IMG/VR virus record: IMGVR_UViG_3300032173_000003
Span: 1-64,000 of that record
Strand: one strand, 5' to 3'
DNA length: 64,000 nucleotides
DNA from: a virus
Shown here: piece after piece, positions 36,716-61,835 of the stretch
Position numbering within the stretch: the stretch's first letter is position 1
How the letters are laid out: each line of letters starts with the position of its first letter
The notes under the pieces: generated by a model
Told to the model about the DNA's origin: nothing
What the model saw: the letters and a program-made list of their open reading frames with translations, nothing else
The model's database searches: none
Program-made: the position numbers and the translations under genes

Positions 36716-36834
36716 TGGGACCGGCAGGATTCGAACCATGCAACCACTCCTTTAAACGAGGTATTTTTTAATTGCTGATGTATCTTGTACAAGATAACTT
36801 TTATTTAGTGCTCTACCAGTTGAGCTACGGTCCC
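36716..36834 (-). ncRNA. tRNA-like RNA with anticodon arm replaced by a hairpin+CAGCAA insert (unit 1)
   Basis: GGGACCG/CGGTCCC acceptor, GCTC/GAGC D-arm, TTCGAAT T-loop; insert TATCTT-GTAC-AAGATA then CAGCAA. Confidence 0.85.
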
Positions 36835-37179: not shown

Positions 37180-37298
37180 TCGGGGAAGAAGGAATCGAAC
37201 CTCCGTCACGTCCTGTCTGATGGAATTTTAGTAATTGCTGTCTGTACCTTAAACAAGATAACTGTTAATTACGTGTGCTACCACTGCACCATTCCCCA
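37180..37298 (-). ncRNA. tRNA-like RNA with hairpin+CAGCAA insert (unit 5)
   Basis: TGGGGAA/TTCCCCG; GTGC/GCAC D-arm; TATCTTG-TT-TAAGGTA then CAGCAA; GGAGG TTCGATT CCTTC. Confidence 0.85.
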
Positions 37299-60430: not shown

Positions 60431-60802
60431 TTACCCAAAAAGACTTACGAGGCGGCGGATGAATGTGAACAAACCCCAAGCAGGCTCGCACTTCCACAGG
60501 GGCAAGTGGGAGAGTAGAAAGCGCTTCCCCTCCGGAACCACACAAGCGAGGGCACTAGGGTTATAGCCGTAGTAGTCAGGGTCGTGGAACTCTTCTGCGT
60601 GGACTCCGTGAGCCTTGAGCATACTGTACAGGTGCAGAAGTTCGGCCCTGTCCTCCACAGTAATCCAAACGAAGTTGACATTCGGGTCTAGTGGCCCTTC
60701 GTTAGTATTAAACCAGTGGCAGTATTTGACTTGGGCGTGTGCCCCCTGAATAGCTTGTTGGTGTACAGGGAGGTCCCTGCGAGAGATTGCGTAGAAGTAC
60801 AT
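60431..60802 (-). CDS. peptidyl-tRNA hydrolase, PTH2-like
   Basis: YAISRRDL...QAIQGAHA, F.DPD, SALA, LSHLPL. Confidence 0.7.
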   Translation of the reverse strand: MYFYAISRRDLPVHQQAIQGAHAQVKYCHWFNTNEGPLDPNVNFVWITVEDRAELLHLYSMLKAHGVHAEEFHDPDYYGYNPSALACVVPEGKRFLLSHLPLWKCEPAWGLFTFIRRLVSLFG

Positions 60803-60824: not shown

Positions 60825-61175
60825 TTAAATACGGTTCAATCTTGTGGCAACCTCTGAAGCATCATTTGCAGCATCATCGACCTTTTGCCTTAACTCGATT
60901 ATAATGTTTGCAATGTTGTTATAAATTGCCCTTTCACTGCGGCTCAGGCCATCCCAACACCCCTCACATTCACCACCCTCTGTGACTTCTGACCCGTTGA
61001 AAATTTCCCTGAGGACTTGGTGGGTGTTCCAATTTTTTAAGTGGTCATAGTAGTCTTCTGGTTTTTTGAAATCAAGCCAAGACAAGCACTCGTAGTCAAG
61101 GGGTCCAAACTCTGAAGAAAGTTTCTTAAGTTTTGTCTTGCCAGAAGGTTTTAGTAGTTTAGGGTCGATTTCCAC
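60825..61175 (-). CDS. hypothetical protein
   Basis: 116-aa ORF. Confidence 0.55.
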   Translation of the reverse strand: MEIDPKLLKPSGKTKLKKLSSEFGPLDYECLSWLDFKKPEDYYDHLKNWNTHQVLREIFNGSEVTEGGECEGCWDGLSRSERAIYNNIANIIIELRQKVDDAANDASEVATRLNRI

Positions 61176-61201
61176 GGTTTACCATTGAGTCATAGACAGT
61201 T

Positions 61202-61223
61202 AAAGCAAAGGGGCCGAAGCCCC
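61202..61223 (-). terminator. terminator after the tmRNA coding piece
   Basis: GGGGC TTCG GCCCC TTTGCTTT. Confidence 0.75.
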
Positions 61224-61570
61224 CGTGCAATGAGTCAGAGTGCGGTTGCTCAAACGGCAACGGCAATCCTCTCGAATTTGACGATTTTGTTAGCGTCTAT
61301 TTTGTGCTTATGCAAGCGGCTTTCAGTGATTGGCTTGCTGTCGGTCGATTCCAGAGCGGACCCGTGGTGGAGAGGTGGGATTCTAACCCACATTAGACCT
61401 TTCCCCATGAGTAATAGTGAGGGAGAGCGGTCTAAGTTCTCTCAATGGATCCGAGGCGATTCGAACGCCTGTGTCGCTCAGTAGTTACAATCACCTACAC
61501 CCAGTTTATAGCCATATGGTAGGGCTTTACTTCACGGTTTGTAAGCTAACCAGGTACGATAGATTGGCCC
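61224..61570 (-). ncRNA. ssrA: circularly permuted (two-piece) tmRNA
   Basis: Acceptor piece ends AGGCG TTCGAAT CGCCT CGGATCC A (61446). Coding piece starts GGGTCCG..GAATCGAC (61363) with G3-U70 Ala identity. Tag ANKIVKFERIAVAV* at 61250..61294. Outer boundaries approximate. Confidence 0.9.
61365..61444 (-). ncRNA. D-armless tRNA-like RNA with encoded CCA inside the tmRNA intervening segment
   Basis: GAGAG/CTCTC acceptor-like stem, TTAGACC/GGTCTAA long arm, GTGGG TTAGAAT CCCAC T-arm, ends ACCA. Confidence 0.7.
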
Positions 61571-61835
61571 ATCATGCTGACGTCATCCAACCCATGGGAT
61601 GACCTTGTGAGTTGACCGTCTGGTACACTCGGTGACCTTTCCAGAGCAGTGCAGTTTTGTACTCGTCAGAGAAACGGCGCGGGTCTAGGATGTGGTTTTC
61701 GGCTCGTCGGACAGCACAGGCTGCCAGGTTGATTTTGCTGAAATCAGTCATTGGGTGATTGCCTATCAAAGGTGAGTCAGGGGGACCGGATGGCATCCCC
61801 CGTGCCCCACCATCATAGCACGTTGGGACCCGAAG

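What the first reader, a model, noticed from the sequence alone, without database searches (positions are those of the whole stretch)
61364..61445. CCA-ending tRNA mimic nested in the intervening segment of a permuted phage tmRNA
Seen: the 82-nt spacer between the acceptor piece and the coding piece folds as an acceptor-like stem (GAGAG/CTCTC), one long arm (TTAGACC..GGTCTAA), a T-arm (GTGGG-TTAGAAT-CCCAC) and an encoded ACCA ending 1 nt before the coding piece. The tmRNA itself and the four real tRNAs here lack encoded CCA. Established: two-piece tmRNAs occur in picocyanobacteria and their intervening segment is normally excised and discarded. Inference: maturation releases a third stable RNA (decoy or aminoacylatable mimic), or the mimic guides processing of both tmRNA ends.
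Basis: partly seen in the sequence, partly recalled or inferred. Interest (0 to 1): 0.82.

Follow-up and report, generated by a model that had tools for sequence, protein, structure and literature searches.

The report
tRNA-shaped passenger in phage tmRNA spacer
The stretch that is cut out when this lake phage's two-piece ribosome-rescue RNA matures folds like a tRNA without an anticodon, most likely a worn-down tRNA gene sitting in a spacer that related phages fill with real tRNA genes, and its CCA ending is not shared by its relatives.

Summary
A permuted (two-piece) tmRNA lies on the minus strand. Its 82-nt spacer (61445..61364) folds as a closing stem, a long arm and a T-arm, better than all 200 shuffles, and reads ...ACCA one base before the coding piece.

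- The insert is homologous to 85-86-nt inserts in a second clade of related phage tmRNAs. Six other relatives have 6-29-nt spacers.
- No tRNA finder accepts it.
- The CCA occurs only in the window's lineage. The CA just before the coding piece is common to spacers with and without the insert.
- In close relatives the insert changes about as fast as the flanking leader and roughly 20 times faster than the mature tmRNA. Two variants have lost the fold.
- Other phage tmRNAs hold intact tRNA genes at the same spot: tRNA-Tyr in one, tRNA-Trp plus tRNA-Met in another, whose tRNA-Met ends ACCA one base before the coding piece.

Best reading: a degenerate tRNA passenger, cut out by RNase P and RNase Z as a by-product. 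A stable functional RNA is not excluded. No expression data bear on it.

Earlier notes of this scan report nested tRNAs, and one T-arm passenger RNA, in phage tmRNA spacers on other DNA.

The parts
61210..61522 (-). Whole permuted (two-piece, cyanobacterial-type) tmRNA gene: span of the RF01851 match
   Evidence: RF01851 54.5 bits (cut-off 70). RF04321 55.8 bits (cut-off 47) at 61495..61250.
61446..61500 (-). Acceptor piece. P2 5' strand; T-arm AGGCG-UUCGAAU-CGCCU at 61470-61454; acceptor 3' strand CGGAUCC at 61453-61447; discriminator A at 61446. No CCA is encoded; the next bases are UU.
   Evidence: 0 differences in the X12 variant.
61364..61445 (-). Intervening segment: the 82-nt tRNA-shaped insert (the finding)
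   Evidence: -27.3 kcal/mol, z -3.2, 0/200 shuffles; fold kept in the precursor; covariance model R1 scores 74.7 bits here and finds no other copy in the 87-kb record.
61439..61443 (-). 5' strand GAGAG of the closing (acceptor-like) stem. Preceded by UU at 61445-61444, followed by the invariant AAC at 61438-61436.
   Evidence: GAG is kept in all 4 aligned variants.
61393..61435 (-). Long arm. Outer helix UUAGACC (61435-61429) / GGUCUAA (61399-61393); inner pyrimidine/purine helix; 14-nt loop.
   Evidence: Outer helix: 4 of 6 pairs changed on both sides between the window and the L005 clade. The loop holds 4 of the 10 X12 changes.
61375..61391 (-). T-arm GUGGG-UUAGAAU-CCCAC (T-loop U54 U55 A56 R57 A58)
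   Evidence: Stem identical in the window, X12 and L005. C.A mismatch in L028 and L032. The same T-arm occurs in many true phage tRNAs.
61370..61374 (-). 3' strand CUCUC of the closing stem
61364..61369 (-). Single-stranded tail CACCAC. CCA at 61367-61365, 1 nt before the coding piece.
   Evidence: Not conserved: UCAA in L005, GCAA in L028 and L032.
61205..61363 (-). Coding piece. Acceptor 5' strand GGGUCCG at 61363-61357; tag reading frame 61294..61250 (ANKIVKFERIAVAV*); terminator hairpin 61224-61209.
   Evidence: One difference in the X12 variant.

Best explanation
The insert is a tRNA-derived passenger in the spacer of a phage two-piece tmRNA gene. It is most likely a worn-down tRNA gene that once nested there, as intact tRNA genes still do in related phages.

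Proposed mechanism (inferred):
1. The locus is transcribed as one precursor ending at the terminator at 61224-61209.
2. The tmRNA acceptor stem (61453-61447 with 61363-61357) closes around the spacer.
3. RNase P cuts 5' of G61363. RNase Z, or another 3' activity, cuts after A61446, and CCA is then added. The same would apply to all 32 CCA-less tRNAs of this phage.
4. The 82-nt spacer falls out as a by-product.

Its compact fold brings its two ends together, so the long spacer does not hinder the tmRNA acceptor stem. It no longer decodes and is probably not charged. Its CCA is either a relic of a tRNA 3' end or a chance C in front of the common CA-N leader of the coding piece.

Shown: the anatomy, the homology, the distribution, the rates of change, and nested tRNAs in other phages. 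Inferred: the enzymes, the release and the fate of the RNA.
For: 1. Intact tRNAs sit in the same place in other phage permuted tmRNAs.
- L109 (same region in L110, L112, L124) holds tRNA-Tyr(gta). L115 holds tRNA-Trp(cca) and tRNA-Met(cat) (ARAGORN).
- Rfam agrees: tmRNA_permuted scores 87.1 and 86.8 bits, with the two L115 tRNAs inside the match.
- The isolate S-CAM1 has the same tmRNA as L109 without the 83-nt tRNA, so this is an insertion polymorphism.
- L115's tRNA-Met ends ACCA 1 nt before G1, the same junction as in the window.

2. The window's T-arm and 3' end read like a CCA-encoding phage tRNA with one base missing from the acceptor strand. The best local match is 27 of 28 aligned columns, to a tRNA-Met. 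That locus had been selected by the T-arm pattern.

3. It is not a working tRNA.
- ARAGORN is negative at default and at 80% thresholds.
- RF00005 gives no hit even at E<=10 on the insert alone.
- The long-arm loop is 14-17 nt and varies.

4. Constraint on the sequence is weak.
- X12 against the window: 10 changes in 82 nt of insert, 0 in the 55-nt acceptor piece, 1 in the 159-nt coding piece, and 7 in the 60 nt upstream.
- By my reading of the alignment, L015 against L032 shows about 11 changes in the insert and none in the rest of the tmRNA.
- L028 and L032 do not fold better than shuffles (70 and 35 of 200 shuffles fold as well) and lose the junction.

5. The insert is dispensable. Six of 13 aligned relatives have 6-29-nt spacers. 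One of them co-occurs with the window's type in run X7.

6. The fold is nevertheless kept across the deep split.
- The window, X12 and L005 give the same three-way junction independently.
- 89% of 91 cells are paired, against 44-55% when the partners are slid.
Against: - Between the window and L005 the insert is 67% identical. That equals the functional acceptor piece (70%) and exceeds the 5' tRNA-like part of the coding piece (49%). The T-stem is unchanged and the outer long-arm helix has compensatory changes. This is more order than a dead relic should keep.
- All 10 X12 changes leave the fold intact (-26.4 against -27.3 kcal/mol). Seven fall in unpaired bases. This hints at selection on the structure.
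- No progenitor tRNA could be named. Similarity to tRNAs stops at the T-arm and 3' end.
- All covariation rests on a single contrast between two clades and on four aligned variants (five distinct variants were seen in all).
- The locus is mosaic. The 3' ~100 nt of the tmRNA are nearly identical between the window and L005, while the adjacent protein is 40% identical. Rates are therefore hard to calibrate.
Confidence: 0.5

Rival explanations
1. The excised spacer is a stable, functional tRNA-like small RNA made one-to-one with the phage tmRNA. It could be a decoy or binding partner for a protein that recognises the T-arm/acceptor minihelix, such as RNase P, RNase Z, the CCA-adding enzyme or a host defence nuclease. 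The encoded CCA would give it a ready-made tRNA 3' end.
For: - The independent fold is kept in the window, X12 and L005.
- The T-loop positions U54, U55, R57 and A58 are the same in all five variants, and the linker AAC is invariant in the four aligned sequences.
- The X12 changes preserve the structure.
- Between the clades the insert is as conserved as the acceptor piece.
- In the window the processing sites of the tmRNA itself would release an RNA with paired ends and a short 3' overhang.
- Unchecked first-reader notes report other remodelled tRNA-like RNAs and a Ro60-like gene in the same phage record.
Against: - CCA is absent in the other clade and is not fixed relative to the stem in X12.
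- L028 and L032 have lost the fold.
- The primary sequence drifts as fast as the flanking leader.
- No free-standing copy was found in the 87-kb record or in 17 related loci. The best hit elsewhere lies inside a 775-aa reading frame and is taken as chance.
- In one studied case, Hodgkinia, very few reads map to the 129-nt spacer (PMC6581868, passage read).
Confidence: 0.2
2. The tRNA-shaped spacer acts in cis as a processing guide. RNase P and RNase Z recognise it as a tRNA and so make or speed the cuts that free the acceptor piece's 3' end and the coding piece's 5' leader. MALAT1/mascRNA and tRNA punctuation work this way (recalled, no call).
For: - The tRNA-like minihelix abuts both tmRNA ends with 1-2 nt and 4-6 nt of single strand.
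- A gap of discriminator, 4 nt, then G1 recurs with real nested or adjacent tRNAs: L109 CUCU, L119 and L120 CUAU, L115 CCAC.
- Both insert-bearing clades depart from the GGUUUCGAC motif of the tmRNA's tRNA-like domain that all insert-less relatives keep. This could mean weaker direct recognition of that domain.
Against: - Six related tmRNAs mature with 6-29-nt unstructured spacers, and others with 4-5 nt. No guide is needed in principle.
- The closing stem has 5 bp in the window and 3 bp in L005, shorter than the 7 bp that the enzymes measure.
- The fold has decayed in L028 and L032 while their tmRNA is otherwise identical to that of L015.
Confidence: 0.2
3. There is no real feature. The fold is a chance property of an unconstrained spacer.
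For: Only two clades and five variants are known. The sequence drifts fast. Two variants do not fold better than shuffles.
Against: - 0 of 200 shuffles reach the window's energy, and 6 of 200 reach L005's.
- The same three-way junction is predicted independently in sequences that are 67% identical.
- Helices are kept through changes on both sides.
- The T-loop motif is canonical.
Confidence: 0.05

Closest known systems
Permuted tmRNA with an intact tRNA-Ala gene in its intervening sequence (GCA-2688965__sp002688965.2; tmRNA database paper, PMC11915505, passages read, where it is called 'a unique feature')
   Same: A tRNA-shaped unit lies between the acceptor piece and the coding piece of a two-piece tmRNA gene. 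It is co-transcribed and would be freed by the same tRNA-processing cuts.
   Different: That case is a high-scoring tRNA in a MAG. Here the unit fails every tRNA test: no D-arm, no anticodon loop, a 5-bp closing stem. It sits in phage genomes and is shared by two phage clades.
Intact tRNA genes nested in cyanophage two-piece tmRNAs, found here (L109 group: tRNA-Tyr; L115: tRNA-Trp and tRNA-Met)
   Same: Same slot, same kind of tmRNA (cyanobacterial type, related tags), and the same 1-4-nt gaps to the tmRNA ends. L115 shares the ACCA-C-G1 junction.
   Different: Those are ordinary tRNAs by ARAGORN and Rfam. The window's element is not.
Two-piece tmRNA of picocyanobacteria and of cyanophages such as S-CBWM1 and S-CAM1 (Rfam RF01851, RF04321)
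   Same: The host gene is one of these: G3:U acceptor stem, T-arm, ANxIV... tag, no encoded CCA.
   Different: Their spacers are 5-29 nt. This one is 82 nt and structured, and that drops the RF01851 score below its cut-off.
mascRNA / MALAT1-type tRNA-like processing modules, and mitochondrial tRNA punctuation (recalled, no call)
   Same: A tRNA-like fold inside a longer transcript whose recognition by RNase P and RNase Z defines the ends of the neighbouring RNA.
   Different: Eukaryotic or organellar systems. Cleavage is not shown here, and the neighbouring tmRNA is itself a substrate of the same enzymes.

Membership tests
tRNA (decoding) | Recognised as a cloverleaf by tRNA finders (ARAGORN; Rfam RF00005 at 29 bits or more) | tested here: not met
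   ARAGORN finds nothing at the insert and nothing at the 80% threshold in 6 of 6 sequences. Calls appear only at 50% or in relaxed mitochondrial mode, and they disagree with each other. RF00005 gives no hit at E<=10 on the insert alone.
tRNA (decoding) | Anticodon arm with a 7-nt loop, and a D-arm | tested here: not met
   One long arm with a 14-17-nt loop. Only AAC lies between the closing stem and the arm. 4 of the 10 X12 changes fall in the loop.
tRNA (decoding) | T-arm: 5-bp stem, 7-nt loop with U54, U55, R57, A58, closing G53-C61 | tested here: met
   GUGGG-UUAGAAU-CCCAC. The loop reads UUARA in all five variants. Position 56 is A rather than C, as in many phage tRNAs with this arm.
tRNA (decoding) | 7-bp acceptor stem, discriminator, CCA at 74-76 | tested here: not met
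   The window has 5 bp, or 6-7 positions with a U.C mismatch. L005 has 3 bp. CCA is found only in the window's lineage and at a variable distance from the stem.
Permuted (two-piece) tmRNA (the gene that holds the insert) | Rfam RF04321 at or above 47 bits; acceptor stem with G3:U70 formed between the two pieces; T-arm; tag reading frame after a resume codon | tested here: met
   55.8 bits. 7/7 pairs with G3:U. Tag ANKIVKFERIAVAV*. The narrower RF01851 model reaches only 54.5 of 70 bits because of the insert.
tRNA gene nested in a permuted-tmRNA intervening sequence | Lies wholly between the acceptor piece's discriminator and the coding piece's first base | tested here: met
   61445..61364
tRNA gene nested in a permuted-tmRNA intervening sequence | The nested unit is an intact tRNA | tested here: not met
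   See the tRNA rows. By contrast L109 and L115 meet it.
Other described tRNA-like or phage RNAs (YrlA RF02553, manA RF01745, Tymo tRNA-like RF00233) | Score at or above the family's gathering threshold | tested here: not met
   YrlA 12.1 of 69 bits and manA 10.0 of 55.2 bits on the window's insert. Tymo_tRNA-like 9.2 of 40 bits on L005's insert. All are at chance level.
tRNA-like processing module (mascRNA type) | Cleavage by RNase P at its 5' side and RNase Z at its 3' side | not testable with these tools
   No raw RNA reads were available. Only assembled contigs were laid.

The most novel reading that the evidence does not exclude
The spacer is not waste. Each round of phage tmRNA maturation would release a stable, anticodon-less, T-arm-bearing tRNA-like RNA. 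In the window's lineage it would carry a ready CCA end and act in trans during infection, for instance by occupying a host tRNA-processing or tRNA-targeting defence protein. The tmRNA gene would then be a three-product operon of stable RNAs.
Probability: 0.15. Interest if true: 0.7.

Novelty: new variant of a known kind. Interest (0 to 1): 0.38.

Why it matters
The spacer of two-piece tmRNA genes is treated as throw-away sequence. One nested tRNA has been published, and it was called unique.

This case, with the intact tRNAs found here in other phage tmRNAs, suggests that the spacer is a recurrent landing place for tRNA genes in aquatic phages. It also suggests that such passengers can persist as tRNA-shaped RNAs after they stop decoding.

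Three practical consequences follow:
- Annotation: the insert pushes the specific Rfam model below its threshold, and ARAGORN did not call this tmRNA.
- tRNA gene mobility in phages.
- The question of what minimal tRNA shape the processing enzymes still recognise.

If the excised RNA proved stable and active, it would be a new class of phage small RNA.

Tried and rejected
- Exact-pattern scans for the insert's T-arm gave 2, 6 and 70 loci. Only L005, L011 and L015 were tmRNA inserts. The rest were ordinary tRNAs, coding sequence or unclassified. L044 was flagged by my crude downstream regex, but by eye its flank did not look like a tmRNA start.
- The 18-nt tmRNA word gave 15 loci. Six hold a tmRNA by Rfam, eight are one unrelated phage coding region, and one is other.
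- The tag pattern found nothing in genome contigs.
- A blastn of the window's tmRNA against the phage collection found only a 45-nt match to S-CBWM1.
- The manA, YrlA and standard-tmRNA 3'-end resemblances on the insert were not repeated on L005's insert. I rejected them as chance.
- Model R1 found many 14-29-bit hits in 95 further loci. Most of those loci had been preselected for the T-arm. The best hit (L064) lies inside a 775-aa frame with no tRNA nearby, so I found no free-standing homologue.
- I looked for a progenitor tRNA among 436 distinct predicted tRNAs. Similarity is confined to the T-arm and 3' end.
- A CAU in the window's long-arm loop is not kept in X12 or L005, so I rejected a tRNA-Met reading.
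- No sigma-70-like promoter was found in 61100-61800. An internal promoter for the coding piece is therefore not indicated.
- The RNA run X19 gave one 944-nt contig of an L005-type relative that runs on past the coding piece. It could be precursor RNA or carried-over DNA, so it is no evidence of expression or processing.
- The fourth sequence folded (L008:430-475) had arbitrary coordinates and bears on nothing.
- The papers PMC516066 and PMC16621 are not held. What I say about RNase P, RNase Z and CCA addition in two-piece tmRNA maturation rests on PMC11915505 and PMC9004378 (passages read) and on recall.
Supplementary Table S2 of PMC11915505 and Table S1 of PMC9004378 may list phage tmRNAs with cargo.
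- That a non-tRNA, tRNA-shaped spacer is not in print rests on searches only.
Full report
WHAT IS THERE

The window is the first 64 kb of an 87-kb IMG/VR virus record that CheckV rates 31% complete. Its nearest named relative for this locus is Synechococcus phage S-CBWM1. The neighbouring genes are phage-like: a tail-lysozyme domain, a papain-type peptidase and several PHROG families.

Rfam places a permuted tmRNA on the minus strand. RF04321 matches 61495..61250 at 55.8 bits, cut-off 47. RF01851 matches 61522..61210 at 54.5 bits, below its cut-off of 70, with 79 inserted bases where the model expects 9.

Read from the sequence:
- The acceptor piece ends with the T-arm AGGCG-UUCGAAU-CGCCU, the 3' strand CGGAUCC and discriminator A61446, followed by UU. 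No CCA is encoded.
- The coding piece begins GGGUCCG at 61363. That gives a 7-bp acceptor stem with G3:U.
- The tag reads ANKIVKFERIAVAV*, and a terminator hairpin lies at 61224-61209.

- a closing stem GAGAG/CUCUC;
- a long arm UUAGACC/GGUCUAA with an inner helix and a 14-nt loop;
- a T-arm GUGGG-UUAGAAU-CCCAC;
- a tail CACCAC.

The energy is -27.3 kcal/mol against a shuffle mean of -18.5, z -3.2, and 0 of 200 shuffles fold as well. In a fold of the 296-nt precursor the same junction appears, closed by the tmRNA acceptor stem.

None of the 32 ARAGORN tRNAs of the record encodes CCA. 30 of 32 trailers start with T and 24 with TT, as does the trailer of the acceptor piece.

RELATIVES

Pattern scans of viral and metagenome contigs with conserved tmRNA words gave a family of phage tmRNAs with tags ANxIVKFER(I/T)AVAV or close to it.

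The alignment has 13 distinct rows:
- Six carry a homologous insert: the window, L005, L015, L028, L032 and the partial L029. L005 and L015 have the same insert.
- Six have plain spacers of 6-29 nt: S-CBWM1 (L001/L013), L008, L014, L023, L024 and L031.
- One (L026) is too short to tell.

Laying contigs of public runs added two things. One is a fifth variant, in a 21-kb lake contig of run X12 about 95% identical to the window. The other is an insert-less relative in run X7.

The 116-aa gene just downstream of the tmRNA is syntenic in all of these loci. It is 40-41% identical to the L005 clade and 50-52% identical to the insert-less L014 and L031. The insert's distribution therefore does not follow the flanking gene. 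Either it was lost several times or it moved by recombination.

The locus is visibly mosaic between the window and L005:
- acceptor piece: 70% identical;
- insert: 67%;
- 5' tRNA-like part of the coding piece: 49%;
- the last ~100 nt: nearly identical.

IS THE FOLD SELECTED?

For:
- The window, X12 and L005 fold independently into the same three-way junction, at -27.3, -26.4 and -26.8 kcal/mol.
- On the four-sequence alignment, 89% of 91 cells pair, against 44-55% when the partners are slid. Six of 24 pairs change on both sides.
- The T-loop keeps U54, U55, R57 and A58 in all five variants, and the AAC linker is invariant in the four aligned sequences.
- All ten X12 changes leave the fold intact. 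Seven lie in unpaired bases. Two turn a bulged inner helix into a continuous UCUCC/GGAGA helix.

Against:
- All double changes come from one contrast, the window against the L005 clade, and the structure was derived from these same sequences.
- The X12 contig has 10 changes in the 82-nt insert, none in the 55-nt acceptor piece, one in the 159-nt coding piece, and 7 in the 60 nt upstream. The insert therefore drifts like the flank, about 20 times faster than the mature tmRNA.
- By my reading of the alignment, L032 differs from L015 at about 11 places in the insert and nowhere else in the tmRNA. L028 and L032 have C.A mismatches in the T-stem and the long arm.
- L028 and L032 do not fold better than shuffles (70 and 35 of 200 shuffles fold as well) and lose the junction.

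THE CCA

The other clade ends ..CUCUAGUCAA or ..AUCAGGCAA, with no CCA.

CA at positions -3/-2 before the first G of the coding piece is present in 11 of 13 aligned rows, insert-less ones included: CAC, CAA or CAU. The base at -4 is C only in the window's lineage.

In X12 the tail is CUCUC-CCAC, against CUCUC-CACCAC in the window. The CCA keeps its distance to G1 and not to the stem. That is not how a tRNA 3' end behaves.

The window's T-arm and 3' end also match a CCA-encoding phage tRNA-Met at 27 of 28 aligned columns (a locus preselected by the T-arm pattern). A relic of a real tRNA 3' end is therefore as plausible as chance.

IT IS NOT A tRNA, AND NO KNOWN FAMILY CLAIMS IT

- ARAGORN is negative at default and at 80% thresholds for all variants. 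It gives only mutually inconsistent calls when relaxed further.
- Rfam on the insert alone, at E<=10, shows no tRNA hit. It shows only chance-level resemblances: manA 10 bits, YrlA 12 bits, and the 3' end of standard tmRNA 4 bits. These are not repeated on L005's insert.
- A covariance model of the insert finds it only in the tmRNA spacers of the window and the L005 clade. The next best hit in the 87-kb record and 17 related loci has E = 0.13 and is the T-arm of a tRNA-Ser.
- Hits in 95 further loci are explained by preselection for the T-arm. The best lies inside a long reading frame.

THE DECISIVE CONTEXT

I scanned viral contigs for a T-arm 11-15 nt upstream of a tmRNA coding-piece start. 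The scan returned 26 loci.
- In L109, L110, L112 and L124, ARAGORN calls a permuted tmRNA with an intact tRNA-Tyr(gta) inside it.
- In L115, a 216-kb contig with tag ANQVVAFKRTAVAV, ARAGORN calls a permuted tmRNA that holds tRNA-Trp(cca) and tRNA-Met(cat).
- Rfam agrees: RF04321 scores 87.1 and 86.8 bits, and the two L115 tRNAs lie inside the match.
- The isolated cyanophage S-CAM1 has the L109 tmRNA at about 95% identity, with a 5-nt spacer in place of the 83-nt tRNA. This is a clean insertion polymorphism.
- That tRNA-Tyr is 85-92% identical to free tRNA-Tyr genes of other cyanophages.
- The gap of discriminator, 4 nt, then G1 recurs: CUCU, CUAU and CCAC.

The spacer of cyanophage two-piece tmRNAs is therefore a repeated landing place for tRNA genes.

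LITERATURE

- The tmRNA database paper reports one permuted tmRNA, from a nominally archaeal MAG, with an intact tRNA-Ala in its intervening sequence. It calls this unique among 11,946 permuted sequences, and it lists 79 phage tmRNAs (PMC11915505, passages).
- Two-piece tmRNAs in aquatic phages are known: 53 among 18,146 phage genomes (PMC9004378, passages).
- In Hodgkinia very few reads map to the 129-nt spacer (PMC6581868, passage).
- I found no paper on a non-tRNA, tRNA-shaped spacer.
- Earlier notes of this scan, read after my own, report nested tRNAs, small protein genes and one T-arm passenger RNA in phage tmRNA spacers on other DNA. The scan has therefore seen this phenomenon before.

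READING

Most likely (0.5), the insert is a tRNA-derived passenger that has stopped decoding. It would be excised as a by-product when RNase P and a 3' activity mature the tmRNA. Its compact, ends-together fold is tolerated and partly maintained because it does not disturb the tmRNA acceptor stem.

A stable trans-acting tRNA-like RNA (0.2) and a cis-acting processing guide (0.2) remain open. Pure chance is unlikely (0.05).

The enzymes, the release and the fate of the RNA are inferred. No raw RNA reads were available.

VERDICT

This is a real and correctly described structure and a modest new variant of a known kind: cargo in the tmRNA spacer. Its headline feature, the CCA end, is not conserved. 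Interest 0.38.

Noticed in passing
L109:1690-2050 (-) against L125 (S-CAM1, NC_020837.1 108355-109248): An intact tRNA-Tyr(gta) sits in the spacer of a marine cyanophage two-piece tmRNA. The isolate S-CAM1 has the same tmRNA (~95% identical) with a 5-nt spacer. This is a clean 83-nt insertion polymorphism.
   Followed up: yes
L115:2984-3306 (-): A permuted tmRNA (tag ANQVVAFKRTAVAV) on a 216-kb viral contig holds two tRNA genes in its spacer, Trp(cca) and Met(cat). The tRNA-Met ends ACCA 1 nt before the coding piece.
   Followed up: partly
window 36716-36834 and 37180-37298 (-): Two 119-nt matches to the Rfam tRNA model (44.6 and 41.1 bits) that ARAGORN does not call. First-reader notes link them to a Ro60-like gene and Y-RNA-like tRNA mimics.
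   Followed up: no
window 61205-61320 (-) against L005: The last ~100 nt of the tmRNA (tag and terminator) are nearly identical between the window and the L005 clade. The adjacent 116-aa gene is only 40% identical, and the tRNA-like domain is 49-70% identical. This looks like recent recombination inside the tmRNA gene.
   Followed up: partly
window 61340-61356 (-) and L005 clade: Both insert-bearing clades depart from the GGUUUCGAC motif of the tmRNA's tRNA-like domain (window GGAAUCGAC, L005 GGUCUCGCU). All six insert-less relatives keep it.
   Followed up: no
G000:C1 26697-79213 (whole 87-kb record): All 32 predicted tRNAs lack an encoded CCA. 30 have a trailer starting with T (24 with TT). 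One call at 78900-78970 has a two-base 'anticodon'.
   Followed up: partly
window 60431-60802 (-): The 123-aa frame that another first-reader note calls PTH2-like has no Pfam or PHROG match (E<=0.01 and 0.001). It is conserved downstream of the tmRNA in L014, L031, L024, L005 and L027 (47-59% identity).
   Followed up: partly
window 61205-61522 (-) and relatives: These phage tmRNAs are minimal. A short stretch and a terminator follow the tag stop codon, and the pseudoknot region of the RF01851 model is largely missing from the window's alignment. ARAGORN did not call the window's tmRNA at all.
   Followed up: no
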